Source: Eledone cirrhosa (Eukaryota). Taken from it: a stretch of DNA of 64,000 bases. Positions 1,891 to 64,000 of this stretch are shown in pieces; within the stretch, counting starts at the first letter, position 1, and the number at the start of each line of letters is the position of its first letter. Location of the stretch: contig OZ024742.1 in the NCBI GenBank assembly GCA_964016885.1, forward strand, positions 114,886,001 to 114,950,000, read 5' to 3'. The notes under the pieces were generated by a model. That model was not told the origin of the DNA, ran no database searches, and saw only the letters and a list, made by a program, of their open reading frames with translations. The position numbers were made by a program, and so were the translations under genes.

Positions 1891-1893
<3 letters not shown>

Positions 1894-5938: not shown

Positions 5939-6039
5939 TATGTCAAGTCCCTCCGTCCATATGGCCCTGCGGATGGCGTTCGTGGTATATTCACTCAGGT
6001 GGGGGATTTTAAAGAAGCAGATTTTAAAGAAGCAGATTT

Positions 6040-25781: not shown

Positions 25782-26601
25782 AAAATAAGCCCCCATATTA
25801 ACTGTAAAACTAGAAATGTAGTGTATAGCATAAGATGTACTGAAGGACAATGTAGAGACAAAAATATAGTGTACATAGGTGAGACAGCTCGTAGTGTAGG
25901 GGAACGGATAAATGAACACTGGCGAGACCTTCAAGATAATAAAGAATCATCTGTACTCTACCAACATGCTAAGATAGAACACAAGGGTAAATTAGAGAAC
26001 ATAGAAATAAAAATAGAATCTACACACAGAAAAGACGCAATGTTTAGACAAATTACAGAAGCAATAAACATAAAAGAATTACAACCAAAATTAAATAGAA
26101 AATACGAGTGGAACAGCAACATCACAACTTACAATTAAGGACAAAATGAAAACACACACACACATAGAACAAACAACCAACCAGTAACATGCAAATAAAC
26201 AAATAAATAAATGAACATAAACACACACAGACACCCGGATGTGGCGCATGCGCAGACTGAGCACACAACACACACACAGAAACAAAATGGCCTAGGACAG
26301 AACAAAGGAGAGGCACAGAAAGAAAGAAATGAATCCCCAGTCACTGAAGAGGTCCCAGAGTGTGTGACGAAAGAACTATGACTATATATAAACAACTATC
26401 TGGTTGTGGAACCAACCAACCAACCAACCAGAAAGTTATAAATTTGTAAATTTATAAATTTGTAAATATATAATAAATTGAAGTGAAAGCTTGTGGTGCG
26501 TGTGTTTCTTATTGGCAACATGACCCTCCCAAAGTATAACAATAGCGGTTTCAACACACGATTTCAGATAAAGAATCTTGCTAAACAAATTCTGAAACGA
26601 A
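25782..26601 (+). mobile_element. A-rich PLE 3' end: GIY-YIG endonuclease + pLTR, ending at (TA)n
   Basis: CKTRNVVYSIRC...VYIGETARSVGERINEH...HAKIEH...RQITEAINIK...LNRKYEW* (stop 26138). The pLTR matches 13130-13471. Confidence 0.9.
26339..26383 (+). ncRNA. Minimal type I hammerhead ribozyme in PLE pLTR
   Basis: AGTCA | CTGAAGA | GGTCCCA-GAGTG-TGTGAC | GAAAG AA CTA | TGACT. Confidence 0.75.
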
Positions 26602-35990: not shown

Positions 35991-36970
35991 GGTATTACTT
36001 AGGAAAATGGCTTTCAGTTATAACTGAATTAATAGGTTATATGAATTTTCTGAGGTAAATTGTAATATCTAAGTAGGGAAGAAATATGATATACGATAGT
36101 ACTGAGGGAATAGTGTATAATATTCGAATTAAACAATATTGTTTCTGGCAGTACTGACGTAAGAGTTTGGGGAATAGAACAAATGAAATAATGCTTTAAG
36201 TAAGAGCGACCAGATTAAAGTTTAAACATACTTTGAGCAAATGATGATAAATATGTTTTTTTAAATAACTCAGGAAATATTTATAAACAGATTCAAATGA
36301 AAAAATGTTTCAGGAAATGGTATTTAGAATACAACACGGTAGAGTTACGTTGTTAAAATTATATTTACGATAATGATGATCTTAAAGAATTTATATGCGA
36401 CAATATAGGGAAGAAGGCCTTAAATCAGCCACGAAATTGTGATTTAAAATGCAACTCGGTAAGATCAGGTTATTCAAATGTTTAACATAGTGCTGAGGTT
36501 ATATAATCTATATATGAGGACATAGTGAAGGAGGCGTTTGAGTTGAAGTGTAATAAATAATGCCACATCCGCTATACAGACTTCAGTAAAGACTAGAAAT
36601 GTGACTAGAATTTGAATTATGACTAGAACATTTTGCTTTTTATTGGAGGTATTAAGTTTGTTATCAGTTAGGTGGCATCAATAATCAAAGTGGTGCGCGC
36701 AAATCACATGTAGATCTATATGTCTAAATATAATTTTCAACGATTAAATATTTTACTACCTTTGGAAGAAATTACAGATGATGATTTAACAAATATTTCT
36801 CAATGAGCCAGCGATTGTACAACAACACGGTCTTTGGTCCGTTAGGCTGTATTGTTTAATTTCAATAAGTGTTCAAAATATTTACTCTTTGACTGGACGA
36901 CTATATTATATCAGATATAATGTTTGTCATTTTAAATAAAGAAACCTATTTTAACATTCGAAACCAAATA

Positions 36971-39900
36971 TATCTCCCCTGTTTGCTGAGATCAAAGTGA
37001 GTGAATTTGTCACTACTATAAAACAATAGCTTACGGTCTTCAAGATGCTTTTAATTAAGCATAAAGTGTATTGCAAAATACATTATATATACATCCATAT
37101 ATATATTGCTATTTCAGAGCTCCAATTCTAATTTTTAATTTCTGCCTGACCAACAACCGCTCTGCATAATCAGCTCCTGATTATTTACTAGATTTCTATA
37201 AGAATATAACATCATTGATCTCAGTAGACAGGTGGGGTAGTTGGCCTTGCTAAGCTTCAGCCAAAGCGAAACATGTCATGTCGGCTTATCTCCTCCTGTT
37301 TGCTGAGATCGAAGTGAGTGAATGTGTCACTACTTTAAAACAATAGCTTACGGTCTTCAAAATGCTTTTAATTAAGCATAAAGTGTATTGCAAAATACAT
37401 TATACATACATCCATATATATATTGCTATTTCAGAGCTACAATTCTAATTTTTAATTTCTGCCTGACCAACAACCGCTCTGCATAATCAGCTCCTGATTA
37501 TTTACTAGATTTCTATAAGAATATAACAGCATTGATATGAGTAGACAGGTGGGGTAGTTGGCCTTGATAAGCTTCAACCAAAGCGAAAAATGTCATGTCG
37601 GCTTATCTACCCTGTTTGCTGAGATCAAAGTGAGTGAATTTGTCACTACTTTAAAACAATAGCTTACGGTCTTCAACATGCTTTTAATTAAGCATAAAGT
37701 GTATTGCAAAATACATTATATATACATCCATATATATATTGCTATTTCAGAGCTCCAATTCTAATTTTTAATTTCTGCCTGACCAACAACCGCTCTGCAT
37801 AATCAGCTCCTGATTATTTACTAGATTTCTATAAGAATATAACATCATTGATCTCAGTAGACAGGTGGGGCAGTTGGCCTTGATAAGCTTCAACCAAAGC
37901 GAAACATTTATGTCGGCTTATCTCCCCTGTTTGCTGAGATCAAAGTGAGTGAATTTGTCACTCCTTTAAAACAATAGCTTACGGTGTTCAAAATGCTTTT
38001 AATTAAGCGTAAAGTGTATTGCAAAATACATTATATATACATCCATATATATATATTGCTATTTCAGAGCTCCAATTCTAATTTTTAATTTCTGCCTGAC
38101 CAACAACTGCTCTGCATAATCAGCTCCTGATTATTTACTAGATTTCTATAAGAATATAACAGCATTGATATGAGTAGACAGGTGGGGTAGTTGGCCTTGA
38201 TAAGCTTCAACCACAGCGAAACATGCCATGTCGGCTTATCTACCCTGTTTGCTGAGATCAAAGTGAGTGAATTTGTCACTACTTTAAAACAATAGCTTAC
38301 GGTCTTCAAAATGCTTTTAATTAAGCATAAAGTGTATTGCAAAATACATTATACATACATCCATATATATATTGCTATTTCAGAGCTACAATTCTAATTT
38401 TTAATTTCTGCCTGACCAACAACCGCTCTGCATAATCAGCTCCTGATTATTTACTAGATTTCTATAAGAATATAACAGCATTGATATGAGTAGACAGGTG
38501 GGGTAGTTGGCCTTGATAAGCTTCAACCAAAGCGAAACATGTTATGTCGGTTTATCTCCCCTGTTTGCTGAGATCAAAGTGAGTGAATTTGTCACTACTT
38601 TAAAACAATAGCTTACGGTCTTCAACATGCTTTTAATTAAGCATAAAGTGTATTGCAAAATACATTATATATACATCCATATATATATTGCTATTTCAGA
38701 GCTCCAATTCTAATTTTTAATTTCTGCCTGACCAACAACCGCTCTGCATAATCAGCTCCTGATTATTTACTAGATTTCTATAACAATATAACATCATTGA
38801 TCTCAGTAGACAGGTGGGGTAGTTGGCCTTGATAAGCTTCAACAAAAGCGAAATATGTCATGTCGGCTTATCTCCCCTGTTTGCTGAGATCAAAGTGAGT
38901 GAATTTGTCACTACTTTAAAACAATAGCTTACGGTCTTCAAAATGCTTTTAATTATGCATAAAGTGTATTGCAAAATACATTATATATACATCCATATAT
39001 ATATTGCTATTTCAGAGCTCCAATTCTAATTTTTAATATCTGCCTGACCAACAACCGCTCTGCATAATCAGCTCCTGATTATTTACTAGATTTCTATAAT
39101 AATATAACATCATTGATCTCAGTAGACAGTTGGGGTAGTTGGCCTTGATAAGCTTCAACCAAAATGAAACATGTCATGTCGGCTTATCTCCCCTGTTTGC
39201 TGAGATCAAAGTGAGTGAATTTGTCACTACTTTAAAACAATAGCTTACGGTCTTCAAAATGCTTTTAATTATGCATAAAGTATATTGCAAAATACATTAT
39301 ATATACATCCATATATATATATTGCTATTTCAGAGCTCCAATTCTAATTTTTAATTTTTGCCTGACCAACAACCACTCTGCATAATCAGCTCCTGATTAT
39401 TTACTAGATTTCTATAAGAATATAACATCATTGATCTCAGTAGACAGGTGGGTTAGTTGGCCTTGAAAAGCTTCAACCAAAGCGAAACATGTCATGTCGG
39501 CTTATCTCTCCTGTTTGCTGAGATCAAAGTGAGTGAATTTGTCACTACTTTAAAACAATAGCTTACGGTCTTCAAAATGCTTTTAATTAAGCATAAAGTG
39601 TATTGCAAAATACATTATATATACATCCATATATATATTGCTATTTCAGAGGTCCAATTCTAATTTTTTATTTCTGCCTGACCAACAACCGCTCTGCATA
39701 ATCAGCTCCTGATTATTTACTAGATTTCTATAAGAATATAACATCATTGATCTCAGTAGACAGGTGGGGTAGTTGGCCTTCATAAGCTTCAACCAAAGCG
39801 AAACATGTTGTGTCGGCTTATCTCCCCTGTTTGCTGAGATCAAAGTGAGTGAATTTGTCACTACTTTAAAACAATAGCTTACGGTCTTCAAAATGCTTTT

Positions 39901-42900
39901 AATTAAGCATAAAGTGTATTGCAAAATACATTATATATACATCCATATATATATTGCTATTTCAGAGCTCCAATTCTAATTTTTAATATCTGCCTGACCA
40001 ACAACCGCTCTGCATAATCAGCTCCTGATTATTTACTAGATTTCTATAAGAATATAACATCATTGATCTCAGTAGACAGGTGGGGTAGTTGGCCTTGATA
40101 AGCTTCAACCAAATTGAAACATGTCATGTCGGCTTATCTCCCCTGTTTGCAGAGATCAAAGTGAGTGAATTTGTCACTACTTTAAAACAATAGCTTACGG
40201 TCTTCAAAATGCTTTTAATTATGCATAAAGTGTATTGCAAAATACATTATACATACATCCATATATATATTGCTATTTCAGAGCTCCAATTCTAATTTTT
40301 AAATTTCTGCCTTACCAACAACCGCTCTGCATAATCAGCTCCTGATTATTTACTAGATTTCTATAAGAATATAACATCATTGATCTCAGTAGACAGGTGG
40401 GTTAGTTGGCCTTGATAAGCTTCAACCAAAGCGAAACATGTCATGTCGGCTTATCTCTCCTGTTTGCTGAGATCAAAGTGAGTGAATTTGTCACTACTTT
40501 AAAACAATAGCTTACGGTCTTCAAAATGCTTTTAATTAAGCATAAAGTGTATTGCAAAATACATTATATATACATCCATATATATATTGCTATTTCAGAG
40601 GTCCAATTCTAATTTTTTATTTCTGCCTGACCAACAACCGCTCTGCATAATCAGCTCCTGATTATTTACTAGATTTCTATATTAATATAACATCATTGAT
40701 CTCAGTAGACAGGTGGGGTAGTTGGCCTTCATAAGCTTCAACCAAAGCGAAACATGTTATGTCGGCTTATCTCCCCTGTTTGCTGAGATCAAAGTGAGTG
40801 AATTTGTCACTACTTTAAAACAATAGCTTACGGTCTTCAAAATGCTTTTAATTATGCATAAAGTATATTGCAAAATACATTATATATACATCCATATATA
40901 TATTGCTATTTCAGAGCTCCAATTCTAATTTTTTAATTTCTGCCTGACCAACAACCGCTCTGCATAATCAGCTCCTGATTATTTACTAGATTTCTATAAG
41001 AATATAACATCATTGATCTCAGTAGACAGGTGGGGTAGTTGGCCTTGATAAGCTTCAACCAAATTGAAACATGTCATGTCGGCTTATCTCCCCTGTTTGC
41101 AGACATCAAAGTGAGTGAATTTGTCACTACTTTAAAACAATAGCTTACGGTCTTCAAAATGCTTTTAATTATGCATAAAGTATATTGCAAAATACATTAT
41201 ATATACATCCATATATATATATTGCTATTTCAGAGCTCCAATTCTAATTTTTAATTTTTGCCTGACCAACAACCACTCTGCATAATCAGCTCCTGATTAT
41301 TTACTAGATTTCTATAAGAATATAACAGCATTGATATGAGTAGACAGGTGGGGTAGTTGGCCTTGATAAGCTTCAACCACAGCGAAACATGCCATGTCGG
41401 CTTATCTACCCTGTTTGCTGAGATCAAAGTGAGTGAATTTGTCACTACTTTAAAACAATAGCTTACGGTCTTCAAAATGCTTTTAATTAAGCATAAAGTG
41501 TATTGCAAAATACATTATACATACATCCATATATATATTGCTATTTCAGAGCTACAATTCTAATTTTTAATTTCTGCCTGACCAACAACCGCTCTGCATA
41601 ATCAGCTCCTGATTATTTACTAGATTTCTATAAGAATATAACAGCATTGATATGAGTAGACAGGTGGGGTAGTTGGCCTTGATAAGCTTCAACCAAAGCG
41701 AAACATGTTATGTCGGTTTATCTCCCCTGTTTGCTGAGATCAAAGTGAGTGAATTTGTCACTACTTTAAAACAATAGCTTACGGTCTTCAACATGCTTTT
41801 AATTAAGCATAAAGTGTATTGCAAAATACATTATATATATATATCCATATATATATTGCTATTTCATAGCTCCAATTCTAATTTTTAATTTCTGCCTGAC
41901 CAACAACTGCTCTGCATAATCAGCTCCTGATTATTTACTAGATTTCTATAACAATATAACATCATTGATCTCAGTAGACAGGTGGGGTAGTTGGCCTTGA
42001 TAAGCTTCAACAAAAGCGAAATATGTCATGTCGGCTTATCTCCCCTGTTTGCTGAGATCAAAGTGAGTGAATTTGTCACTACTTTAAAACAATAGCTTAC
42101 GGTCTTCAAAATGCTTTTAATTAAGCATAAAGTGTATTGCAAAATACATTATATATACATCCATATATATATTGCTATTTCAGAGGTCCAATTCTAATTT
42201 TTTATTTCTGCCTGACCAACAACCGCTCTGCATAATCAGCTCCTGATTATTTACTAGATTTCTATATTAATATAACATCATTGATCTCAGTAGACAGGTG
42301 GGGTAGTTGGCCTTCATAAGCTTCAACCAAAGCGAAACATGTTATGTCGGCTTATCTCCCCTGTTTGCTGAGATCAAAGTGAGTGAATTTGTCACTACTT
42401 TAAAACAATAGCTTACGGTCTTCAAAATGCTTTTAATTATGCATAAAGTATATTGCAAAATACATTATATATACATCCATATATATATTGCTATTTCAGA
42501 GCTCCAATTCTAATTTTTTAATTTCTGCCTGACCAACAACCGCTCTGCATAATCAGCTCCTGATTATTTACTAGATTTCTATAAGAATATAACATCATTG
42601 ATCTCAGTAGACAGGTGGGGTAGTTGGCCTTGATAAGCTTCAACCAAATTGAAACATGTCATGTCGGCTTATCTCCCCTGTTTGCAGACATCAAAGTGAG
42701 TGAATTTGTCACTACTTTAAAACAATAGCTTACGGTCTTCAAAATGCTTTTAATTATGCATAAAGTATATTGCAAAATACATTATATATACATCCATATA
42801 TATATATTGCTATTTCAGAGCTCCAATTCTAATTTTTAATTTTTGCCTGACCAACAACCACTCTGCATAATCAGCTCCTGATTATTTACTAGATTTCTAT

Positions 42901-45900
42901 TAGAATATAACAGCATTGATATGAGTAGACAGGTGGGGTAGTTGGCCTTGATAAGCTTCAACCACAGCGAAACATGCCATGTCGGCTTATCTACCCTGTT
43001 TGCTGAGATCAAAGTGAGTGAATTTGTCACTACTTTAAAACAATAGCTTACGGTCTTCAAAATGCTTTTAATTAAGCATAAAGTGTATTGCAAAATACAT
43101 TATACATACATCCATATATATATTGCTATTTCAGAGCTACAATTCTAATTTTTAATTTCTGCCTGACCAACAACCGCTCTGCATAATCAGCTCCTGATTA
43201 TTTACTAGATTTCTATAAGAATATAACAGCATTGATATGAGTAGACAGGTGGGGTAGTTGGCCTTGATAAGCTTCAACAAAAGCGAAATATGTCATGTCG
43301 GCTTATCTCCCCTGTTTGCTGAGATCAAAGTGAGTGAATTTGTCACTACTTTAAAACAATAGCTTACGGTCTTCAAAATGCTTTTAATTATGCATAAAGT
43401 ATATTGCAAAATACATTATATATACATCCATATATATATTGCTATTTCAGAGCTCCAATTCTAATTTTTTAATTTCTGCCTGACCAACAACCGCTCTGCA
43501 TAATCAGCTCCTGATTATTTACTAGATTTCTATAAGAATATAACATCATTGATCTCAGTAGACAGGTGGGGTAGTTGGCCTTGATAAGCTTCAACCAAAT
43601 TGAAACATGTCATGTCGGCTTATCTCCCCTGTTTGCAGACATCAAAGTGAGTGAATTTGTCACTACTTTAAAACAATAGCTTACGGTCTTCAAAATGCTT
43701 TTAATTATGCATAAAGTATATTGCAAAATACATTATATATACATCCATATATATATATTGCTATTTCAGAGCTCCAATTCTAATTTTTAATTTTTGCCTG
43801 ACCAACAACCACTCTGCATAATCAGCTCCGGATTATTTACTAGATTTCTATAAGAATATAACATCATTGATCTCAGTAGACAGGTGGGTTAGTTGGCCTT
43901 GAAAAGCTTCAACCAAAGCGAAACATGTCATGTCGGCTTATTTCTCCTGTTTGCTGAGATCAAAGTGTGTGAATGTGTCACTACTTTAAAACAATAGCTT
44001 ACGGTCTTCAACATGCTTTTAATTAAGCATAAAGTGTATTGCAAAATACATTATATATACATCCATATATATATTGCTATTTCAGAGCTCCAATTCTAAT
44101 TTTTAATTTCTGCCTGACCAACAACCGCTCTGCATAATCAGCTCCTGATTATTTACTAGATTTCTATAAGAATATAACATCATTGATCTCAGTAGACAGG
44201 TGGGGCAGTTGGCCTTGATAAGCTTCAACCAAAGCGAAACATTTATGTCGGCTTATCTCCCCTGTTTGCTGAGATCAAAGTGAGTGAATTTGTCACTCCT
44301 TTAAAACAATAGCTTACGGTGTTCAAAATGCTTTTAATTAAGCGTAAAGTGTATTGCAAAATACATTATATATACATCCATATATATATATTGCTATTTC
44401 AGAGCTCCAATTCTAATTTTTAATTTCTGCCTGACCAACAACTGCTCTGCATAATCAGCTCCTGATTATTTACTAGATTTCTATAAGAATATAACAGCAT
44501 TGATATGAGTAGACAGGTGGGGTAGTTGGCCTTGATAAGCTTCAACCACAGCGAAACATGCCATGTCGGCTTATCTACCCTGTTTGCTGAGATCAAAGTG
44601 AGTGAATTTGTCACTACTTTAAAACAATAGCTTACGGTCTTCAAAATGCTTTTAATTAAGCATAAAGTGTATTGCAAAATACATTATACATACATCCATA
44701 TATATATTGCTATTTCAGAGCTACAATTCTAATTTTTAATTTCTGCCTGACCAACAACCGCTCTGCATAATCAGCTCCTGATTATTTACTAGATTTCTAT
44801 AAGAATATAACAGCATTGATATGAGTAGACAGGTGGGGTAGTTGGCCTTGATAAGCTTCAACCAAAGCGAAACATGTTATGTCGGTTTATCTCCCCTGTT
44901 TGCTGAGATCAAAGTGAGTGAATTTGTCACTACTTTAAAACAATAGCTTACGGTCTTCAACATGCTTTTAATTAAGCATAAAGTGTATTGCAAAATACAT
45001 TATATATACATCCATATATATATTGCTATTTCAGAGCTCCAATTCTAATTTTTAATTTCTGCCTGACCAACAACCGCTCTGCATAATCAGCTCCTGATTA
45101 TTTACTAGATTTCTATAACAATATAACATCATTGATCTCAGTAGACAGGTGGGGTAGTTGGCCTTGATAAGCTTCAACAAAAGCGAAATATGTCATGTCG
45201 GCTTATCTCCCCTGTTTGCTGAGATCAAAGTGAGTGAATTTGTCACTACTTTAAAACAATAGCTTACGGTCTTCAAAATGCTTTTAATTATGCATAAAGT
45301 GTATTGCAAAATACATTATATATACATCCATATATATATTGCTATTTCAGAGCTCCAATTCTAATTTTTAATATCTGCCTGACCAACAACCGCTCTGCAT
45401 AATCAGCTCCTGATTATTTACTAGATTTCTATAATAATATAACATCATTGATCTCAGTAGACAGTTGGGGTAGTTGGCCTTGATAAGCTTCAACCAAAAT
45501 GAAACATGTCATGTCGGCTTATCTCCCCTGTTTGCTGAGATCAAAGTGAGTGAATTTGTCACTACTTTAAAACAATAGCTTACGGTCTTCAAAATGCTTT
45601 TAATTATGCATAAAGTATATTGCAAAATACATTATATATACATCCATATATATATATTGCTATTTCAGAGCTCCAATTCTAATTTTTAATTTTTGCCTGA
45701 CCAACAACCACTCTGCATAATCAGCTCCTGATTATTTACTAGATTTCTATAAGAATATAACATCATTGATCTCAGTAGACAGGTGGGTTAGTTGGCCTTG
45801 AAAAGCTTCAACCAAAGCGAAACATGTCATGTCGGCTTATCTCTCCTGTTTGCTGAGATCAAAGTGAGTGAATTTGTCACTACTTTAAAACAATAGCTTA

Positions 45901-48900
45901 CGGTCTTCAAAATGCTTTTAATTAAGCATAAAGTGTATTGCAAAATACATTATATATACATCCATATATATATTGCTATTTCAGAGGTCCAATTCTAATT
46001 TTTTATTTCTGCCTGACCAACAACCGCTCTGCATAATCAGCTCCTGATTATTTACTAGATTTCTATAAGAATATAACATCATTGATCTCAGTAGACAGGT
46101 GGGGTAGTTGGCCTTCATAAGCTTCAACCAAAGCGAAACATGTTGTGTCGGCTTATCTCCCCTGTTTGCTGAGATCAAAGTGAGTGAATTTGTCACTACT
46201 TTAAAACAATAGCTTACGGTCTTCAAAATGCTTTTAATTAAGCATAAAGTGTATTGCAAAATACATTATATATACATCCATATATATATTGCTATTTCAG
46301 AGCTCCAATTCTAATTTTTAATATCTGCCTGACCAACAACCGCTCTGCATAATCAGCTCCTGATTATTTACTAGATTTCTATAAGAATATAACATCATTG
46401 ATCTCAGTAGACAGGTGGGGTAGTTGGCCTTGATAAGCTTCAACCAAATTGAAACATGTCATGTCGGCTTATCTCCCCTGTTTGCAGAGATCAAAGTGAG
46501 TGAATTTGTCACTACTTTAAAACAATAGCTTACGGTCTTCAAAATGCTTTTAATTATGCATAAAGTGTATTGCAAAATACATTATACATACATCCATATA
46601 TATATTGCTATTTCAGAGCTCCAATTCTAATTTTTAAATTTCTGCCTTACCAACAACCGCTCTGCATAATCAGCTCCTGATTATTTACTAGATTTCTATA
46701 AGAATATAACATCATTGATCTCAGTAGACAGGTGGGTTAGTTGGCCTTGATAAGCTTCAACCAAAGCGAAACATGTCATGTCGGCTTATCTCTCCTGTTT
46801 GCTGAGATCAAAGTGAGTGAATTTGTCACTACTTTAAAACAATAGCTTACGGTCTTCAAAATGCTTTTAATTAAGCATAAAGTGTATTGCAAAATACATT
46901 ATATATACATCCATATATATATTGCTATTTCAGAGGTCCAATTCTAATTTTTTATTTCTGCCTGACCAACAACCGCTCTGCATAATCAGCTCCTGATTAT
47001 TTACTAGATTTCTATATTAATATAACATCATTGATCTCAGTAGACAGGTGGGGTAGTTGGCCTTCATAAGCTTCAACCAAAGCGAAACATGTTATGTCGG
47101 CTTATCTCCCCTGTTTGCTGAGATCAAAGTGAGTGAATTTGTCACTACTTTAAAACAATAGCTTACGGTCTTCAAAATGCTTTTAATTATGCATAAAGTA
47201 TATTGCAAAATACATTATATATACATCCATATATATATTGCTATTTCAGAGCTCCAATTCTAATTTTTTAATTTCTGCCTGACCAACAACCGCTCTGCAT
47301 AATCAGCTCCTGATTATTTACTAGATTTCTATAAGAATATAACATCATTGATCTCAGTAGACAGGTGGGGTAGTTGGCCTTGATAAGCTTCAACCAAATT
47401 GAAACATGTCATGTCGGCTTATCTCCCCTGTTTGCTGAGATCAAAGTGAGTGAATTTGTCACTACTTTAAAACAATAGCTTACGGTCTTCAAAATGCTTT
47501 TAATTATGCATAAAGTATATTGCAAAATACATTATATATACATCCATATATATATATTGCTATTTCAGAGCTCCAATTCTAATTTTTAATTTTTGCCTGA
47601 CCAACAACCACTCTGCATAATCAGCTCCTGATTATTTACTAGATTTCTATAAGAATATAACATCATTGATCTCAGTAGACAGGTGGGTTAGTTGGCCTTG
47701 AAAAGCTTCAACCAAAGCGAAACATGTCATGTCGGCTTATCTCTCCTGTTTGCTGAGATCAAAGTGAGTGAATTTGTCACTACTTTAAAACAATAGCTTA
47801 CGGTCTTCAAAATGCTTTTAATTAAGCATAAAGTGTATTGCAAAATACATTATATATACATCCATATATATATTGCTATTTCAGAGGTCCAATTCTAATT
47901 TTTTATTTCTGCCTGACCAACAACCGCTCTGCATAATCAGCTCCTGATTATTTACTAGATTTCTATAAGAATATAACATCATTGATCTCAGTAGACAGGT
48001 GGGGTAGTTGGCCTTCATAAGCTTCAACCAAAGCGAAACATGTTGTGTCGGCTTATCTCCCCTGTTTGCTGAGATCAAAGTGAGTGAATTTGTCACTACT
48101 TTAAAACAATAGCTTACGGTCTTCAAAATGCTTTTAATTAAGCATAAAGTGTATTGCAAAATACATTATATATACATCCATATATATATTGCTATTTCAG
48201 AGCTCCAATTCTAATTTTTAATATCTGCCTGACCAACAACCGCTCTGCATAATCAGCTCCTGATTATTTACTAGATTTTTATAAGAATATAACATCATTG
48301 ATCTCAGTAGACAGGTGGGGTAGTTGGCCTTGATAAGCTTCAACCAAATTGAAACATGTCATGTCGGCTTATCTCCCCTGTTTGCAGAGATCAAAGTGAG
48401 TGAATTTGTCACTACTTTAAAACAATAGCTTACGGTCTTCAAAATGCTTTTAATTATGCATAAAGTGTATTGCAAAATACATTATACATACATCCATATA
48501 TATATTGCTATTTCAGAGCTCCAATTCTAATTTTTAAATTTCTGCCTTACCAACAACCGCTCTGCATAATCAGCTCCTGATTATTTACTAGATTTCTATA
48601 AGAATATAACATCATTGATCTCAGTAGACAGGTGGGTTAGTTGGCCTTGATAAGCTTCAACCAAAGCGAAACATGTCATGTCGGCTTATCTCTCCTGTTT
48701 GCTGAGATCAAAGTGAGTGAATTTGTCACTACTTTAAAACAATAGCTTACGGTCTTCAAAATGCTTTTAATTAAGCATAAAGTGTATTGCAAAATACATT
48801 ATATATACATCCATATATATATTGCTATTTCAGAGGTCCAATTCTAATTTTTTATTTCTGCCTGACCAACAACCGCTCTGCATAATCAGCTCCTGATTAT

Positions 48901-51900
48901 TTACTAGATTTCTATATTAATATAACATCATTGATCTCAGTAGACAGGTGGGGTAGTTGGCCTTCATAAGCTTCAACCAAAGCGAAACATGTTATGTCGG
49001 CTTATCTCCCCTGTTTGCTGAGATCAAAGTGAGTGAATTTGTCACTACTTTAAAACAATAGCTTACGGTCTTCAAAATGCTTTTAATTATGCATAAAGTA
49101 TATTGCAAAATACATTATATATACATCCATATATATATTGCTATTTCAGAGCTCCAATTCTAATTTTTTAATTTCTGCCTGACCAACAACCGCTCTGCAT
49201 AATCAGCTCCTGATTATTTACTAGATTTCTATAAGAATATAACATCATTGATCTCAGTAGACAGGTGGGGTAGTTGGCCTTGATAAGCTTCAACCAAATT
49301 GAAACATGTCATGTCGGCTTATCTCCCCTGTTTGCAGACATCAAAGTGAGTGAATTTGTCACTACTTTAAAACAATAGCTTACGGTCTTCAAAATGCTTT
49401 TAATTATGCATAAAGTATATTGCAAAATACATTATATATACATCCATATATATATATTGCTATTTCAGAGCTCCAATTCTAATTTTTAATTTTTGCCTGA
49501 CCAACAACCACTCTGCATAATCAGCTCCTGATTATTTACTAGATTTCTATAAGAATATAACAGCATTGATATGAGTAGACAGGTGGGGTAGTTGGCCTTG
49601 ATAAGCTTCAACCACAGCGAAACATGCCATGTCGGCTTATCTACCCTGTTTGCTGAGATCAAAGTGAGTGAATTTGTCACTACTTTAAAACAATAGCTTA
49701 CGGTCTTCAAAATGCTTTTAATTAAGCATAAAGTGTATTGCAAAATACATTATACATACATCCATATATATATTGCTATTTCAGAGCTACAATTCTAATT
49801 TTTAATTTCTGCCTGACCAACAACCGCTCTGCATAATCAGCTCCTGATTATTTACTAGATTTCTATAAGAATATAACAGCATTGATATGAGTAGACAGGT
49901 GGGGTAGTTGGCCTTGATAAGCTTCAACAAAAGCGAAATATGTCATGTCGGCTTATCTCCCCTGTTTGCTGAGATCAAAGTGAGTGAATTTGTCACTACT
50001 TTAAAACAATAGCTTACGGTCTTCAAAATGCTTTTAATTAAGCATAAAGTGTATTGCAAAATACATTATATATACATCCATATATATATTGCTATTTCAG
50101 AGGTCCAATTCTAATTTTTTATTTCTGCCTGACCAACAACCGCTCTGCATAATCAGCTCCTGATTATTTACTAGATTTCTATATTAATATAACATCATTG
50201 ATCTCAGTAGACAGGTGGGGTAGTTGGCCTTCATAAGCTTCAACCAAAGCGAAACATGTTATGTCGGCTTTTCTCCCCTGTTTGCTGAGATCAAAGTGAG
50301 TGAATTTGTCACTACTTTAAAACAATAGCTTACGGTCTTCAAAATGCTTTTAATTATGCATAAAGTATATTGCAAAATACATTATATATACATCAATATA
50401 TATATTGCTATTTCAGAGCTCCAATTCTAATTTTTTAATTTCTGCCTGACCAACAACCGCTCTGCATAATCAGCTCCTGATTATTTACTAGATTTCTATA
50501 AGAATATAACATCATTGATCTCAGTAGACAGGTGGGGTAGTTGGCCTTGATAAGCTTCAACCAAATTGAAACATGTCATGTCGGCTTATCTCCCCTGTTT
50601 GCAGACATCAAAGTGAGTGAATTTGTCACTACTTTAAAACAATAGCTTACGGTCTTCAAAATGCTTTTAATTATGCATAAAGTATATTGCAAAATACATT
50701 ATATATACATCCATATATATATATTGCTATTTCAGAGCTCCAATTCTAATTTTTAATTTTTGCCTGACCAACAACCACTCTGCATAATCAGCTCCTGATT
50801 ATTTACTAGATTTCTATAAGAATATAACAGCATTGATATGAGTAGACAGGTGGGGTAGTTGGCCTTGATAAGCTTCAACCACAGCGAAACATGCCATGTC
50901 GGCTTATCTACCCTGTTTGCTGAGATCAAAGTGAGTGAATTTGTCACTACTTTAAAACAATAGCTTACGGTCTTCAAAATGCTTTTAATTAAGCATAAAG
51001 TGTATTGCAAAATACATTATACATACATCCATATATATATTGCTATTTCAGAGCTACAATTCTAATTTTTAATTTCTGCCTGACCAACAACCGCTCTGCA
51101 TAATCAGCTCCTGATTATTTACTAGATTTCTATAAGAATATAACAGCATTGATATGAGTAGACAGGTGGGGTAGTTGGCCTTGATAAGCTTCAACAAAAG
51201 CGAAATATGTCATGTCGGCTTATCTCCCCTGTTTGCTGAGATCAAAGTGAGTGAATTTGTCACTACTTTAAAACAATAGCTTACGGTCTTCAAAATGCTT
51301 TTAATTATGCATAAAGTATATTGCAAAATACATTATATATACATCCATATATATATTGCTATTTCAGAGCTCCAATTCTAATTTTTTAATTTCTGCCTGA
51401 CCAACAACCGCTCTGCATAATCAGCTCCTGATTATTTACTAGATTTCTATAAGAATATAACATCATTGATCTCAGTAGACAGGTGGGGTAGTTGGCCTTG
51501 ATAAGCTTCAACCAAATTGAAACATGTCATGTCGGCTTATCTCCCCTGTTTGCAGACATCAAAGTGAGTGAATTTGTCACTACTTTAAAACAATAGCTTA
51601 CGGTCTTCAAAATGCTTTTAATTATGCATAAAGTATATTGCAAAATACATTATATATACATCCATATATATATATTGCTATTTCAGAGCTCCAATTCTAA
51701 TTTTTAATTTTTGCCTGACCAACAACCACTCTGCATAATCAGCTCCGGATTATTTACTAGATTTCTATAAGAATATAACATCATTGATCTCAGTAGACAG
51801 GTGGGTTAGTTGGCCTTGAAAAGCTTCAACCAAAGCGAAACATGTCATGTCGGCTTATTTCTCCTGTTTGCTGAGATCAAAGTGTGTGAATGTGTCACTA

Positions 51901-54900
51901 CTTTAAAACAATAGCTTACGGTCTTCAAAATTATTTTAATTAAGCATAAAGTGTATTGCAAAATACATTATATATACATCCATATATATATTGCTATTTC
52001 AGAGCTCCAATTCTAATTTTTAATATCTGCCTGACCAACAACCGCTCTGCATAATCAGCTCCTGATTATTTACTAGATTTCTATAAGAATATAACATCAT
52101 TGATCTCAGTAGACAGGTGGGGTAGTTGCCCTTGATAAGCTTCAACCAAATTGAAACATGTCATGTCGGCTTATCTCCCCTGTTTGCTGAGATCAAAGTG
52201 AGTGAATTTGTCACTCCTTTAAAACAATAGCTTACGGTGTTCAAAATGCTTTTAATTAAGCGTAAAGTGTATTGCAAAATACATTATATATACATCCATA
52301 TATATATATTGCTATTTCAGAGCTCCAATTCTAATTTTTAATTTCTGCCTGACCAACAACTGCTCTGCATAATCAGCTCCTGATTATTTACTAGATTTCT
52401 ATAAGAATATAACAGCATTGATATGAGTAGACAGGTGGGGTAGTTGGCCTTGATAAGCTTCAACCACAGCGAAACATGCCATGTCGGCTTATCTACCCTG
52501 TTTGCTGAGATCAAAGTGAGTGAATTTGTCACTACTTTAAAACAATAGCTTACGGTCTTCAAAATGCTTTTAATTAAGCATAAAGTGTATTGCAAAATAC
52601 ATTATACATACATCCATATATATATTGCTATTTCAGAGCTCCAATTCTAATTTTTAATTTTTGCCTGACCAACAACCACTCTGCATAATCAGCTCCGGAT
52701 TATTTACTAGATTTCTATAAGAATATAACATCATTGATCTCAGTAGACAGGTGGGTTAGTTGGCCTTGATAAGCTTCAACCAAAGCGAAACATGTCATGT
52801 CGGCTTATCTCTCCTGTTTGCTGAGATCAAAGTGAGTGAATTTGTCACTACTTTAAAACAATAGCTTACGGTCTTCAAAATGCTTTTAATTAAGCATAAA
52901 GTGTATTGCAAAATACATTATATATACATCCATATATATATTGCTATTTCAGAGGTCCAATTCTAATTTTTTATTTCTGCCTGACCAACAACCGCTCTGC
53001 ATAATCAGCTCCTGATTATTTACTAGATTTCTATATTAATATAACATCATTGATCTCAGTAGACAGGTGGGGTAGTTGGCCTTCATAAGCTTCAACCAAA
53101 GCGAAACATGTTATGTCGGCTTATCTCCCCTGTTTGCTGAGATCAAAGTGAGTGAATTTGTCACTACTTTAAAACAATAGCTTACGGTCTTCAAAATGCT
53201 TTTAATTATGCATAAAGTATATTGCAAAATACATTATATATACATCCATATATATATTGCTATTTCAGAGCTCCAATTCTAATTTTTTAATTTCTGCCTG
53301 ACCAACAACCGCTCTGCATAATCAGCTCCTGATTATTTACTAGATTTCTATAAGAATATAACATCATTGATCTCAGTAGACAGGTGGGGTAGTTGGCCTT
53401 GATAAGCTTCAACCAAATTGAAACATGTCATGTCGGCTTATCTCCCCTGTTTGCAGACATCAAAGTGAGTGAATTTGTCACTACTTTAAAACAATAGCTT
53501 ACGGTCTTCAAAATGCTTTTAATTATGCATAAAGTATATTGCAAAATACATTATATATACATCCATATATATATATTGCTATTTCAGAGCTCCAATTCTA
53601 ATTTTTAATTTTTGCCTGACCAACAACCACTCTGCATAATCAGCTCCTGATTATTTACTAGATTTCTATAAGAATATAACAGCATTGATATGAGTAGACA
53701 GGTGGGGTAGTTGGCCTTGATAAGCTTCAACCACAGCGAAACATGCCATGTCGGCTTATCTACCCTGTTTGCTGAGATCAAAGTGAGTGAATTTGTCACT
53801 ACTTTAAAACAATAGCTTACGGTCTTCAAAATGCTTTTAATTAAGCATAAAGTGTATTGCAAAATACATTATACATACATCCATATATATATTGCTATTT
53901 CAGAGCTACAATTCTAATTTTTAATTTCTGCCTGACCAACAACCGCTCTGCATAATCAGCTCCTGATTATTTACTAGATTTCTATAAGAATATAACAGCA
54001 TTGATATGAGTAGACAGGTGGGGTAGTTGGCCTTGATAAGCTTCAACAAAAGCGAAATATGTCATGTCGGCTTATCTCCCCTGTTTGCTGAGATCAAAGT
54101 GAGTGAATTTGTCACTACTTTAAAACAATAGCTTACGGTCTTCAAAATGCTTTTAATTAAGCATAAAGTGTATTGCAAAATACATTATATATACATCCAT
54201 ATATATATTGCTATTTCAGAGGTCCAATTCTAATTTTTTATTTCTGCCTGACCAACAACCGCTCTGCATAATCAGCTCCTGATTATTTACTAGATTTCTA
54301 TATTAATATAACATCATTGATCTCAGTAGACAGGTGGGGTAGTTGGCCTTCATAAGCTTCAACCAAAGCGAAACATGTTATGTCGGCTTTTCTCCCCTGT
54401 TTGCTGAGATCAAAGTGAGTGAATTTGTCACTACTTTAAAACAATAGCTTACGGTCTTCAAAATGCTTTTAATTATGCATAAAGTATATTGCAAAATACA
54501 TTATATATACATCAATATATATATTGCTATTTCAGAGCTCCAATTCTAATTTTTTAATTTCTGCCTGACCAACAACCGCTCTGCATAATCAGCTCCTGAT
54601 TATTTACTAGATTTCTATAAGAATATAACATCATTGATCTCAGTAGACAGGTGGGGTAGTTGGCCTTGATAAGCTTCAACCAAATTGAAACATGTCATGT
54701 CGGCTTATCTCCCCTGTTTGCAGACATCAAAGTGAGTGAATTTGTCACTACTTTAAAACAATAGCTTACGGTCTTCAAAATGCTTTTAATTATGCATAAA
54801 GTATATTGCAAAATACATTATATATACATCCATATATATATATTGCTATTTCAGAGCTCCAATTCTAATTTTTAATTTTTGCCTGACCAACAACCACTCT

Positions 54901-57900
54901 GCATAATCAGCTCCTGATTATTTACTAGATTTCTATAAGAATATAACAGCATTGATATGAGTAGACAGGTGGGGTAGTTGGCCTTGATAAGCTTCAACCA
55001 CAGCGAAACATGCCATGTCGGCTTATCTACCCTGTTTGCTGAGATCAAAGTGAGTGAATTTGTCACTACTTTAAAACAATAGCTTACGGTCTTCAAAATG
55101 CTTTTAATTAAGCATAAAGTGTATTGCAAAATACATTATACATACATCCATATATATATTGCTATTTCAGAGCTACAATTCTAATTTTTAATTTCTGCCT
55201 GACCAACAACCGCTCTGCATAATCAGCTCCTGATTATTTACTAGATTTCTATAAGAATATAACAGCATTGATATGAGTAGACAGGTGGGGTAGTTGGCCT
55301 TGATAAGCTTCAACAAAAGCGAAATATGTCATGTCGGCTTATCTCCCCTGTTTGCTGAGATCAAAGTGAGTGAATTTGTCACTACTTTAAAACAATAGCT
55401 TACGGTCTTCAAAATGCTTTTAATTATGCATAAAGTATATTGCAAAATACATTATATATACATCCATATATATATTGCTATTTCAGAGCTCCAATTCTAA
55501 TTTTTTAATTTCTGCCTGACCAACAACCGCTCTGCATAATCAGCTCCTGATTATTTACTAGATTTCTATAAGAATATAACATCATTGATCTCAGTAGACA
55601 GGTGGGGTAGTTGGCCTTGATAAGCTTCAACCAAATTGAAACATGTCATGTCGGCTTATCTCCCCTGTTTGCAGACATCAAAGTGAGTGAATTTGTCACT
55701 ACTTTAAAACAATAGCTTACGGTCTTCAAAATGCTTTTAATTATGCATAAAGTATATTGCAAAATACATTATATATACATCCATATATATATATTGCTAT
55801 TTCAGAGCTCCAATTCTAATTTTTAATTTTTGCCTGACCAACAACCACTCTGCATAATCAGCTCCGGATTATTTACTAGATTTCTATAAGAATATAACAT
55901 CATTGATCTCAGTAGACAGGTGGGTTAGTTGGCCTTGAAAAGCTTCAACCAAAGCGAAACATGTCATGTCGGCTTATTTCTCCTGTTTGCTGAGATCAAA
56001 GTGTGTGAATGTGTCACTACTTTAAAACAATAGCTTACGGTCTTCAAAATTATTTTAATTAAGCATAAAGTGTATTGCAAAATACATTATATATACATCC
56101 ATATATATATTGCTATTTCAGAGCTCCAATTCTAATTTTTAATATCTGCCTGACCAACAACCGCTCTGCATAATCAGCTCCTGATTATTTACTAGATTTC
56201 TATAAGAATATAACATCATTGATCTCAGTAGACAGGTGGGGTAGTTGCCCTTGATAAGCTTCAACCAAATTGAAACATGTCATGTCGGCTTATCTCCCCT
56301 GTTTGCTGAGATCAAAGTGAGTGAATTTGTCACTCCTTTAAAACAATAGCTTACGGTGTTCAAAATGCTTTTAATTAAGCGTAAAGTGTATTGCAAAATA
56401 CATTATATATACATCCATATATATATATTGCTATTTCAGAGCTCCAATTCTAATTTTTAATTTCTGCCTGACCAACAACTGCTCTGCATAATCAGCTCCT
56501 GATTATTTACTAGATTTCTATAAGAATATAACAGCATTGATATGAGTAGACAGGTGGGGTAGTTGGCCTTGATAAGCTTCAACCACAGCGAAACATGCCA
56601 TGTCGGCTTATCTACCCTGTTTGCTGAGATCAAAGTGAGTGAATTTGTCACTACTTTAAAACAATAGCTTACGGTCTTCAAAATGCTTTTAATTAAGCAT
56701 AAAGTGTATTGCAAAATACATTATACATACATCCATATATATATTGCTATTTCAGAGCTACAATTCTAATTTTTAATTTCTGCTTGACCAACAACCGCTC
56801 TGCATAATCAGCTCCTGATTATTTACTAGATTTCTATAAGAATATAACAGCATTGATATGAGTAGACAGGTGGGGTAGTTGGCCTTGATAAGCTTCAACC
56901 AAAGCGAAACATGTTATGTCGGTTTATCTCCCCTGTTTGCTGAGATCAAAGTGAGTGAATTTGTCACTACTTTAAAACAATAGCTTACGGTCTTCAACAT
57001 GCTTTTAATTAAGCATAAAGTGTATTGCAAAATACATTATATATAAATCCATATATATATTGCTATTTCAGAGCTCCAATTCTAATTTTTAATTTCTGCC
57101 TGACCAACAACCGCTCTGCATAATCAGCTCCTGATTATTTACTAGATTTCTATAACAATATAACATCATTGATCTCAGTAGACAGGTGGGGTAGTTGGCC
57201 TTGATAAGCTTCAACAAAAGCGAAATATGTCATGTCGGCTTATCTCCCCTGTTTGCTGAGATCAAAGTGAGTGAATTTGTCACTACTTTAAAACAATAGC
57301 TTACGGTCTTCAAAATGCTTTTAATTATGCATAAAGTGTATTGCAAAATACATTATATATACATCCATATATATATTGCTATTTCAGAGCTCCAATTCTA
57401 ATTTTTTAATTTCTGCCTGACCAACAACCGCTCTGCATAATCAGCTCCTGATTATTTACTAGATTTCTATAAGAATATAACATCATTGATCTCAGTAGAC
57501 AGGTGGGGTAGTTGGCCTTGATAAGCTTCAACCAAATTGAAACATGTCATGTCGGCTTATCTCCCCTGTTTGCAGACATCAAAGTGAGTGAATTTGTCAC
57601 TACTTTAAAACAATAGCTTACGGTCTTCAAAATGCTTTTAATTATGCATAAAGTATATTGCAAAATACATTATATATACATCCATATATATATATTGCTA
57701 TTTCAGAGCTCCAATTCTAATTTTTAATTTTTGCCTGACCAACAACCACTCTGCATAATCAGCTCCTGATTATTTACTAGATTTCTATAAGAATATAACA
57801 GCATTGATATGAGTAGACAGGTGGGGTAGTTGGCCTTGATAAGCTTCAACCACAGCGAAACATGCCATGTCGGCTTATCTACCCTGTTTGCTGAGATCAA

Positions 57901-60900
57901 AGTGAGTGAATTTGTCACTACTTTAAAACAATAGCTTACGGTCTTCAAAATGCTTTTAATTAAGCATAAAGTGTATTGCAAAATACATTATACATACATC
58001 CATATATATATTGCTATTTCAGAGCTACAATTCTAATTTTTAATTTCTGCCTGACCAACAACCGCTCTGCATAATCAGCTCCTGATTATTTACTAGATTT
58101 CTATAAGAATATAACAGCATTGATATGAGTAGACAGGTGGGGTAGTTGGCCTTGATAAGCTTCAACAAAAGCGAAATATGTCATGTCGGCTTATCTCCCC
58201 TGTTTGCTGAGATCAAAGTGAGTGAATTTGTCACTACTTTAAAACAATAGCTTACGGTCTTCAAAATGCTTTTAATTATGCATAAAGTATATTGCAAAAT
58301 ACATTATATATACATCCATATATATATTGCTATTTCAGAGCTCCAATTCTAATTTTTTAATTTCTGCCTGACCAACAACCGCTCTGCATAATCAGCTCCT
58401 GATTATTTACTAGATTTCTATAAGAATATAACATCATTGATCTCAGTAGACAGGTGGGGTAGTTGGCCTTGATAAGCTTCAACCAAATTGAAGCATGTCA
58501 TGTCGGCTTATCTCCCCTGTTTGCAGACATCAAAGTGAGTGAATTTGTCACTACTTTAAAACAATAGCTTACGGTCTTCAAAATGCTTTTAATTATGCAT
58601 AAAGTATATTGCAAAATACATTATATATACATCCATATATATATATTGCTATTTCAGAGCTCCAATTCTAATTTTTAATTTTTGCCTGACCAACAACCAC
58701 TCTGCATAATCAGCTCCGGATTATTTACTAGATTTCTATAAGAATATAACATCATTGATCTCAGTAGACAGGTGGGTTAGTTGGCCTTGAAAAGCTTCAA
58801 CCAAAGCGAAACATGTCATGTCGGCTTATTTCTCCTGTTTGCTGAGATCAAAGTGTGTGAATGTGTCACTACTTTAAAACAATAGCTTACGGTCTTCAAA
58901 ATTATTTTAATTAAGCATAAAGTGTATTGCAAAATACATTATATATACATCCATATATATATTGCTATTTCAGAGCTCCAATTCTAATTTTTAATATCTG
59001 CCTGACCAACAACCGCTCTGCATAATCAGCTCCTGATTATTTACTAGATTTCTATAAGAATATAACATCATTGATCTCAGTAGACAGGTGGGGTAGTTGC
59101 CCTTGATAAGCTTCAACCAAATTGAAACATGTCATGTCGGCTTATCTCCCCTGTTTGCTGAGATCAAAGTGAGTGAATTTGTCACTCCTTTAAAACAATA
59201 GCTTACGGTGTTCAAAATGCTTTTAATTAAGCGTAAAGTGTATTGCAAAATACATTATATATACATCCATATATATATATTGCTATTTCAGAGCTCCAAT
59301 TCTAATTTTTAATTTCTGCCTGACCAACAACTGCTCTGCATAATCAGCTCCTGATTATTTACTAGATTTCTATAAGAATATAACAGCATTGATATGAGTA
59401 GACAGGTGGGGTAGTTGGCCTTGATAAGCTTCAACCACAGCGAAACATGCCATGTCGGCTTATCTACCCTGTTTGCTGAGATCAAAGTGAGTGAATTTGT
59501 CACTACTTTAAAACAATAGCTTACGGTCTTCAAAATGCTTTTAATTAAGCATAAAGTGTATTGCAAAATACATTATACATACATCCATATATATATTGCT
59601 ATTTCAGAGCTACAATTCTAATTTTTAATTTCTGCCTGACCAACAACCGCTCTGCATAATCAGCTCCTGATTATTTACTAGATTTCTATAAGAATATAAC
59701 AGCATTGATATGAGTAGACAGGTGGGGTAGTTGGCCTTGATAAGCTTCAACCAAAGCGAAACATGTTATGTCGGTTTATCTCCCCTGTTTGCTGAGATCA
59801 AAGTGAGTGAATTTGTCACTACTTTAAAACAATAGCTTACGGTCTTCAACATGCTTTTAATTAAGCATAAAGTGTATTGCAAAATACATTATATATACAT
59901 CCATATATATATTGCTATTTCAGAGCTCCAATTCTAATTTTTAATTTCTGCCTGACCAACAACCGCTCTGCATAATCAGCTCCTGATTATTTACTAGATT
60001 TCTATAACAATATAACATCATTGATCTCAGTAGACAGGTGGGGTAGTTGGCCTTGATAAGCTTCAACAAAAGCGAAATATGTCATGTCGGCTTATCTCCC
60101 CTGTTTGCTGAGATCAAAGTGAGTGAATTTGTCACTACTTTAAAACAATAGCTTACGGTCTTCAAAATGCTTTTAATTATGCATAAAGTGTATTGCAAAA
60201 TACATTATATATACATCCATATATATATTGCTATTTCAGAGCTCCAATTCTAATTTTTAATATCTGCCTGACCAACAACCGCTCTGCATAATCAGCTCCT
60301 GATTATTTACTAGATTTCTATAAGAATATAACATCATTGATCTCAGTAGACAGTTGGGGTAGTTGGCCTTGATAAGCTTCAACCAAAATGAAACATGTCA
60401 TGTCGGCTTATCTCCCCTGTTTGCTGAGATCAAAGTGAGTGAATTTGTCACTACTTTAAAACAATAGCTTACGGTCTTCAAAATGCTTTTAATTATGCAT
60501 AAAGTATATTGCAAAATACATTATATATACATCCATATATATATATTGCTATTTCAGAGCTCCAATTCTAATTTTTAATTTTTGCCTGACCAACAACCAC
60601 TCTGCATAATCAGCTCCTGATTATTTACTAGATTTCTATAAGAATATAACATCATTGATCTCAGTAGACAGGTGGGTTAGTTGGCCTTGAAAAGCTTCAA
60701 CCAAAGCGAAACATGTCATGTCGGCTTATCTCTCCTGTTTGCTGAGATCAAAGTGAGTGAATTTGTCACTACTTTAAAACAATAGCTTACGGTCTTCAAA
60801 ATGCTTTTAATTAAGCATAAAGTGTATTGCAAAATACATTATATATACATCCATATATATATTGCTATTTCAGAGGTCCAATTCTAATTTTTTATTTCTG

Positions 60901-63900: not shown

Positions 63901-64000
63901 CCTGTTTGCTGAGATCAAAGTGAGTGAATTTGTCACTACTTTAAAACAATAGCTTACGGTCTTCAAAATGCTTTTAATTAAGCATAAAGTGTATTGCAAA
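36971..64000 (+). repeat. ~317-bp tandem satellite (~85 monomers, continues beyond the window) with higher-order repeats; each monomer carries a hammerhead ribozyme (retrozyme-like)
   Basis: TATCTCCCCTGTTTG-type motif recurs at 36971, 37287, 37604, 37919... Variant-specific ORFs recur at offsets 1267, 1585, 1900, 3166, 4119, 6335 and 14889 bp, all multiples of ~316.7. Confidence 0.98.
40380..40476 (+). ncRNA. Representative satellite type I hammerhead ribozyme (U3-A8 variant); predicted cleavage between 40447 and 40448
   Basis: ...AGACAGGTGGGTTA-GTT-GGCC | TTGATAA | GCTT-CAACCA-AAGC | GAAA CAT-GTC-ATGT C^ | GGCT TATCTCTCCTGTTT... Stem I is extended by TTGATCTCAG/CTGAGATCAA. Confidence 0.88.

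What the first reader, a model, noticed from the sequence alone, without database searches (positions are those of the whole stretch)
36955..37000. The array starts 4 nt downstream of the ribozyme cleavage site
Seen: monomer homology begins abruptly at 36971 (TATCTCCCCTGTTTG...). In the monomer this sequence follows GTC^GGCT, so the genomic boundary nearly coincides with the 5' end of the predicted self-cleaved RNA, and it sits in an ATATAT context. A random recombination breakpoint would rarely fall within a few nt of this site in a 317-bp unit. Inference: the founder was a reverse-transcribed, ribozyme-processed RNA (linear multimer or rolling-circle copy of a circRNA) inserted at a TA-rich site, as PLE-mobilised sequences are. 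Caveat: the flank CGAAAC-CAAATA might be a deleted remnant of one more monomer.
Basis: partly seen in the sequence, partly recalled or inferred. Interest (0 to 1): 0.75.

Follow-up and report, generated by a model that had tools for sequence, protein, structure and literature searches.

The report
Ribozyme satellite born from Penelope-type insertion
This 34-kb tandem array of a 316-base repeat carrying a predicted self-cutting RNA motif starts 4 bases after the predicted cut, likely at the original edge of a copy pasted in by a Penelope-type retrotransposon enzyme and later multiplied in place, but scattered copies start almost anywhere in the unit, so the closeness to the cut is only a weak clue.

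Summary
The array starts at 36971, unit position 5, and runs about 106 units, ending 6.6 kb beyond the window. The flank is not a decayed unit, and it adds only 3 bases of the 'ATATAT'. The unit is a type I hammerhead non-LTR retrozyme with at least 500 dispersed insertions. These lie in (AT)n, mostly as two back-to-back arms whose fixed ends are the 3' ends (positions 140 and 166-175), the Penelope 'tail' signature. Their 5' ends spread over the whole unit: 140 of 150 arms read through the cut, with about 2-fold excess near it (12 vs 5.3 of 197). Four dispersed copies in (AT)n share the window's ATA|TAT junction, so it is likely a true insertion edge; whether the cut set its position is about even odds. 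The far end is a deletion fused to a broken Penelope copy. A second, 54-kb array keeps both insertion ends, so such satellites likely grow from single insertions. The scan noted the two-arm pattern before on other DNA. New member of a known kind.

The parts
36968..36973 (+). 5' junction ATA|TAT: 3 flank bases, then unit position 5; TAT microhomology with an AT target
   Evidence: the same junction in 4 dispersed single-arm copies lying in (AT)n (L183, L184, L185, L189)
36971..64000 (+). Tandem array of a 316-bp hammerhead retrozyme unit; continues 6620 bases past the window (L011 1-6620), about 106 units
   Evidence: units 2.1% from the array majority, irregular higher-order blocks
36971..37282 (+). 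First unit (positions 5-316); sequence unique in the array, 4 private changes, as expected of an edge unit that escaped homogenisation
   Evidence: type 0 occurs once; the edge reading is inference
37106..37132 (+). Unit positions 140 and 166: the two fixed 3' ends of dispersed copies (inferred reverse-transcription start sites), with the 26-nt 'tail' between them
37217..37310 (+). First predicted type I hammerhead (long stem I, U3-A8 core, 4-bp stems II and III); predicted cut 37282/37283; this copy has a core mutation (A6 to C)
   Evidence: activity not tested
36959..36964 (+). CGAAAC look-alike in the flank: chance match, not a remnant unit
36640..36970 (.). Upstream flank, single-copy in the genome, no inverted arm

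Best explanation
The boundary at 36971 is likely the original 5' edge of a retrozyme copy that a Penelope-type reverse transcriptase likely pasted into TA-rich DNA, and the array likely grew from that copy later by DNA-level duplication. Steps: (1, shown) the family's dispersed copies lie in (AT)n, mostly as two divergent arms ending at unit positions 140 and 166-175. (2, inferred) a Penelope-like protein nicks both strands of (AT)n and starts reverse transcription at these two internal sites of one RNA. (3, shown) arms usually run through the ribozyme cut, up to six units, and all units of an insertion share one haplotype; (inferred) the template is a circle or an uncut homogeneous multimer. 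(4, shown) 5' ends fall almost anywhere, about twice as often near the cut; single arms that join the target directly often do so at TAT/ATA sites, position 5 among them; (inferred) the cDNA end anneals there. (5, inferred) a founder longer than one unit carries direct repeats, and unequal exchange amplified it to about 106 units while the ribozymes decayed. (6, shown) the far end is fused to the middle of the endonuclease gene of an old Penelope copy; (inferred) a deletion removed the array's true 3' end.
For: Sample not chosen on junctions (42 loci, one search list): 62 of 73 outer ends at 134-140 or 163-175, and 32 of 42 loci with both orientations. All loci: 94 of 148 are two-armed 140/166+. 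510 exact matches to the 166-end plus (AT)n junction, 1 in the control. 197 arms: 5' ends uniform at p = 0.25, 140 of 150 read through the first cut, 82 longer than one unit. Haplotype differences at 27 polymorphic sites: 0.8% within an arm, 1.6% between the two arms, 30% between loci. Same ATA|TAT junction at 7 places genome-wide, 4 of them single arms in (AT)n. The array majority equals a haplotype held by 10 dispersed loci, while 6 of its 22 commonest variants occur in no dispersed locus and only one in more than 5: it is a product, not the source. A second array (G000 C2, 207,686,319-207,740,009, about 54 kb) has (AT)n plus an inverted 166 arm at the left and a 140 end plus (AT)n at the right, with the same insert repeated inside units. 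A coding Penelope copy in the window (about 1892-7326) shows the same footprint: (TA)n on both sides, divergent arms, a tail of about 40 nt on one arm only. In vitro, a Poseidon protein cuts and extends both strands at AT-rich DNA and starts at two internal sites that bound the tail; ribozyme cutting is not needed (PMC11167929).
Against: The flank gives only ATA, not an (AT)n tract, and there is no inverted arm, unlike most loci. The array's 3' end, where the 140/166 signature would be, is lost, so this founder is judged from one junction and by analogy. The array is older (2.1-2.3% from its majority) than same-haplotype dispersed copies (0.6%), so its edge had time to be reworked. No Penelope family with nucleotide homology to the unit was found among 12 loci of the neighbouring family or in the window's first 37 kb, so the mobilising partner is not identified. 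The excess of 5' ends near the cut (top of all 316 nine-base windows) shows that the cut does matter sometimes.
Confidence: 0.68

Rival explanations
1. One reading: reverse transcription ran off the 5' end of a self-cleaved linear RNA (or stalled at the ligation scar or at stem I of a circle), and 4 bases were trimmed back to the TAT that pairs with the target. This shares the insertion origin with the best explanation and differs in what set the position.
For: 12 of 197 5' ends in positions 314-6 against 5.3 expected from a length-dependent model (p = 0.009), 6 in 315-1 against 1.8 (p = 0.009); best of all 316 nine-base windows. Genome-wide AT-joined matches: 7 at position 5 (window included) against 0, 4 and 3 at positions 216, 284 and 60.
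Against: Only 10 of 150 arms that reach the first cut stop within 6 nt of it; 0 of 43 arms in the separately chosen full-length set end there. Windows at 139-150 and 78-89 hold 12 ends as well. Direct joins to the target without the window: 4 at position 5, 3 at 284, 2 at 60, 0 at 216, too few to separate. A founder able to seed a tandem array had already read through at least one cut (inference).
Confidence: 0.38
2. The left edge is a later deletion or recombination break that happened to land at position 5, like the right edge.
For: The right edge is such a break, in the middle of a Penelope endonuclease gene with 1 extra base. No (AT)n tract and no inverted arm on the left.
Against: The junction is letter for letter that of 4 independent young insertions in (AT)n. 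ATA makes up 3% of flank trinucleotides, so a break at this unit position with this flank is improbable. Some other direct joins also have short AT flanks (L124, L204, L205).
Confidence: 0.1
3. The flank CGAAAC-CAAATA is the eroded rest of one more unit, so the apparent start is an artefact of decay.
For: A 6-nt match to the ribozyme core lies 6 nt upstream of the junction.
Against: Spacing is wrong (6 against 14 nt); 16% of flank 30-mers match as well; no alignment above shuffles in 10 of 10 tests; the neighbouring unit has only 4 changes.
Confidence: 0.03

Closest known systems
Metazoan non-LTR retrozymes (Cervera and de la Pena 2020, PMC7229834: passages and the Discussion read; Li, Clavereau and Pollet 2026, bioRxiv 10.64898/2026.07.22.740005: parts 1-3 of 5 read, abstract to discussion)
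   Same: Non-coding 170-400-nt tandem unit, low G+C, one type I hammerhead per unit, strongly self-paired as a circle (z = -5.1), from a few to more than 100 units, in a genome with Penelope-like elements.
   Different: In the parts read, neither paper maps copy ends against the cut, describes two divergent arms with fixed 3' ends in (AT)n, or shows long arrays that keep insertion ends. The preprint proposes that arrays arise from a Penelope terminus left at a locus; here the arrays trace to insertions of the retrozyme itself. Core is U3-A8, not C3-G8. RNA was not seen here.
EN+ Penelope-like elements (Craig et al. 2021, PMC8557442: passages; Frangieh et al. 2024, PMC11167929: parts 1-2 of 4, whole main text)
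   Same: 5' truncation, partial tandems, inverted 5'-truncated copy, 30-40-bp tail at one end, (TA)n or AT-rich targets, two internal start sites, both strands extended, no need for ribozyme cutting.
   Different: No protein; tail 26-35 nt; here the (AT)n junction overlaps AT runs of the unit, whereas the Poseidon start site is not homologous to the target; no homologous pseudo-LTR partner found.
Newt satellite 2, cave-cricket pDo500 and schistosome hammerhead satellites (newt: passage in PMC7229834; Schistosoma W elements: passages of PMC8490949; pDo500 recalled, no call)
   Same: Long tandem satellite with a hammerhead in each unit.
   Different: Here the birth of the satellite can be read from its ends and from young dispersed sisters; most ribozymes of this array are damaged (core plus stem II intact in 19 of 106 units, against 196 of 246 dispersed and 125 of 141 in the C2 array).

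Membership tests
Non-LTR retrozyme | Tandem non-coding unit of about 170-400 nt, G+C under 50% | tested here: met
   316 bp, 33-34% G+C, about 106 units
Non-LTR retrozyme | Type I hammerhead motif in each unit | tested here: met
   Motif in every unit; compensatory changes in stems I, II and III between subfamilies and C3-G8 in the sister family against U3-A8 here; constrained fold -40.0 against free -45.3 kcal/mol. No Rfam hit. Intact in only 19 of 106 units of this array.
Non-LTR retrozyme | Self-cleavage of the RNA | not testable with these tools
   That U3-A8 cores are active is recalled, not tested; PMC11167929 shows that the 3-8 pair can be swapped
Non-LTR retrozyme | Expressed as linear and circular monomer RNA | not testable with these tools
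   Indirect only: read-through of the cut and one haplotype per insertion
Non-LTR retrozyme | Dispersed copies; no LTR, PBS or PPT structure | tested here: met
   2542 exact matches of a 25-mer, 510 end junctions; copies are arms in (AT)n, not LTR pairs
Penelope-mobilised insertion (family level) | Fixed 3' ends, 5' truncation, inverted 5'-truncated copy, tail at one end, AT-rich target | tested here: met
   same footprint in a coding Penelope copy in the window
Penelope-mobilised insertion (this array) | 3' end at position 140 or 166 followed by (AT)n | tested here: inconclusive
   3' end lost: array stops at position 82, fused to a cut Penelope copy
Penelope-mobilised insertion (family level) | Homology to the pseudo-LTR of an autonomous partner | tested here: inconclusive
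   None in 12 loci of one family or in the window's first 37 kb; other families not searched
Processed copy of a ribozyme-cut linear RNA | 5' ends pile up at the cut | tested here: not met
   12 of 197 ends near the cut (2.2-fold excess); 140 of 150 arms read through

The most novel reading that the evidence does not exclude
Long satellite arrays here are born from single Penelope-driven insertions of a ribozyme RNA circle and can keep both insertion ends (54-kb array on C2; 5' end only in this window), giving a readable series from young 1-6-unit insertions to 30-50-kb satellites with dying ribozymes. The small pile-up of 5' ends at the cut would measure how often the enzyme meets a cut or scarred template (about 4 in 100 passes), i.e. 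the template is mostly an intact circle.
Probability: 0.55. Interest if true: 0.62.

Novelty: new member of a known kind. Interest (0 to 1): 0.45.

Why it matters
Retrozymes are thought to be copied from RNA circles by Penelope enzymes, but the papers read rest this on shared ribozymes, co-occurrence and homology. Copy ends give direct footprints: two fixed start sites, read-through of the cut and one haplotype per insertion. They name the exact RNA positions to test in the existing in vitro Penelope assay. The two long arrays also bear on how satellite DNA starts from a mobile element.

Tried and rejected
Rfam scan: no hit. Fold of a 101-nt piece of one mutated unit: z = -0.32, uninformative. 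Empty-site search in the genome: flank is single-copy, 1 weak 47-nt hit. Sequencing runs: no RNA holder listed, which is no evidence on expression. Contigs of 4 runs laid on 36200-37100: only X1 covers the flank; one contig with 3 other letters and 1 gap reaches 27 letters into the array, short of the tool's 31-letter bridging rule; no empty allele seen. Position-200 comparator: 35 matches, but the 12 of 35 inspected belong to a sister family (67-88% identity) with TATATA native at that place, so it was dropped. Apparent 5' ends at 313, 302 and 10 were alignment breaks in a subfamily with another stem III; they were corrected with natural subfamily segments. Rows left out of the 5'-end count: 27 loci chosen by full-length similarity (analysed apart), L056 (duplicate of L054), 4 loci with no alignable arm (L109, L110, L178, L179), arms with non-canonical 3' ends or under 20 nt. 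The neighbouring Penelope family and the window's Penelope copies show no nucleotide homology to the unit. The idea that this array is the master source of dispersed copies was rejected. Literature searches listed no paper that maps retrozyme copy ends or arrays keeping insertion ends; the library lacks most subscription papers, and supplements (Fig. S9 of PMC7229834, preprint tables) were not seen.

Full report
What is there. A tandem array starts at 36971 and fills the rest of the window. It continues for 6620 bases in the next stretch, 33,650 bp and about 106 units of 315-318 bp. Each unit holds a predicted type I hammerhead: long stem I, core UUGAUAA, 4-bp stem II, GAAA, 4-bp stem III, GUC. 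Rfam does not score it. Support comes from covariation: subfamilies swap pairs in stems I, II and III, and a sister family at 67-88% identity mostly has the canonical CUGAUGA core, so position 3-8 varies as a pair. The hammerhead fold costs about 5 kcal/mol against the free fold, and a young unit folded as a circle has z = -5.1 against 100 shuffles. Numbering from the first base after the cut, the array starts at position 5.

The flank. It adds only ATA to the ATATAT; it has no (AT)n tract. It is single-copy and is not a decayed unit: 10 of 10 alignments score like shuffles and 16% of 330 flank 30-mers match the ribozyme as well as CGAAAC does.

The far end. The array stops at position 82 and meets, on the other strand, a Penelope-like element cut inside its GIY-YIG gene (RT and GIY-YIG domains in a sister copy). 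Eleven other copies of that element continue beyond this point. So a deletion most likely took the array's 3' end; no target-site test is possible there.

A 25-mer has 2542 exact matches. I fetched the loci of the first 100 listed, 79 regions from the first 100 of 510 matches to one end junction, and 27 loci found by full-length similarity, kept apart. Insertions lie in (AT)n and mostly consist of two arms joined 5' to 5'. The outer, 3' ends are fixed: in the 42 loci not chosen on junctions, 62 of 73 outer ends are at 134-140 or 163-175 and 32 loci have both orientations. Over all 148 loci, 94 have one arm ending at 140 and one at 166-175. This matches the Penelope footprint: inverted 5'-truncated copy, 30-40-bp tail at one end, (TA)n targets (PMC8557442), and two internal start sites with both strands extended (PMC11167929). 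A coding Penelope copy at about 1892-7326 of this window shows the same footprint.

There is an excess near the cut: 12 ends in positions 314-6 against 5.3 expected (p = 0.009, width chosen by me; best of 316 windows, but two other regions also hold 12). In the 43 arms of the full-length set none ends there. So the cut stops roughly 4 in 100 passes at most.

Template. Within an insertion, units and both arms share one haplotype (0.8% and 1.6% differences at 27 polymorphic sites, against 30% between loci). One RNA served both arms. A circle read for several laps explains this most simply; an uncut transcript of a homogeneous short array is not excluded. No RNA could be examined.

This junction. 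ATA|TATCT occurs at 7 places: the window, 4 single arms lying directly in (AT)n, 1 inversion junction and 1 complex locus. Other single arms join the target at TA-type sites such as 48, 118, 231 and 284. Comparable 3-nt sites have 0 (216), 4 (284) and 3 (60) matches. The window's edge therefore belongs to a known class of insertion junctions, which makes a later break unlikely, though the right edge shows that breaks happen. Position 5 is both next to the cut and a TAT site; the counts give about even odds that the cut set it.

Growth of the array. Its majority haplotype equals that of 10 dispersed loci, but units are 2.1-2.3% from it against 0.6% for the dispersed ones, and its common variants are nearly absent from dispersed copies. 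Blocks of identical units recur irregularly; the first unit and the last 17 are unique. Only 19 of 106 ribozymes keep core and stem II. It is an amplified, decaying product, not the source. A second array on contig C2 (about 54 kb; all read except about 2 kb) begins with (AT)n and an inverted arm ending at 166 and finishes at 140 followed by (AT)n; it alternates 316 and 304-bp units and repeats one insert in several units. That is a standard two-arm insertion with one arm amplified at DNA level, and the best model for the window's array.

Comparison. This is a new family of animal non-LTR retrozymes (PMC7229834; bioRxiv 10.64898/2026.07.22.740005), which already include arrays of up to 300 units and are proposed to ride on Penelope elements. 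In the parts read and in five searches I saw no mapping of copy ends and no array with preserved insertion ends. Earlier notes of this scan report the two-arm pattern for other retrozyme families, in this and other genomes; I had the pattern before seeing them, and they are not independent evidence. None matched this sequence or place.

Verdict. Observation confirmed; interpretation partly supported: right about retrotransposed origin and TA target, weak on the reason given. New member of a known kind; interest 0.45, carried by the satellite-birth evidence and the measured read-through of the cut.

Noticed in passing
G000 C2 207,686,319-207,740,009 (L182, L098, L237, L099, L208, L209, L222): About 54-kb array of the same family with both insertion ends kept, alternating 316 and 304-bp units, 0.8% divergence, 125 of 141 ribozymes intact, a 184-bp insert repeated in several units.
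   Followed up: partly
window 1892-7326: Penelope-like element with a 707-residue stop-free frame (RT, Cys-rich linker, GIY-YIG motif by eye), two divergent arms, (TA)n on both sides, tail on one arm, hammerhead-like motif in each terminal repeat. Candidate enzyme for an in vitro test; no homology to the retrozyme unit.
   Followed up: partly
window 20215-22695 and 24889-26138: Two further Penelope-like elements of other families; the first is a 98.8% self-inverted pair of arms.
   Followed up: no
L011 6621-9500: Decayed two-arm Penelope copy fused to the array's far end; family with many copies about 10% apart, ending in (AT)n.
   Followed up: yes
L190-L201: Older sister retrozyme family, 67-88% identical, mostly canonical CUGAUGA core, same 3' ends at 140 and 166; 4 or 5 of 12 inspected copies join (AT)n at position 200, where the unit has a native TATATA.
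   Followed up: partly
L048, L077, L081, L126, L154: Subfamily with palindromic stem III and compensatory changes in stems I and II; may cleave as dimers (inference).
   Followed up: partly
L121 1800-3326: Insertion in which three successive units share the same 10-nt deletion, then a normal part; either a template switch between circles or local duplication.
   Followed up: no
runs X4-X9: Six other organism labels hold 22-35% of the sampled words; contigs of X4, X5 and X6 align to the unit, so the family seems shared with relatives.
   Followed up: partly
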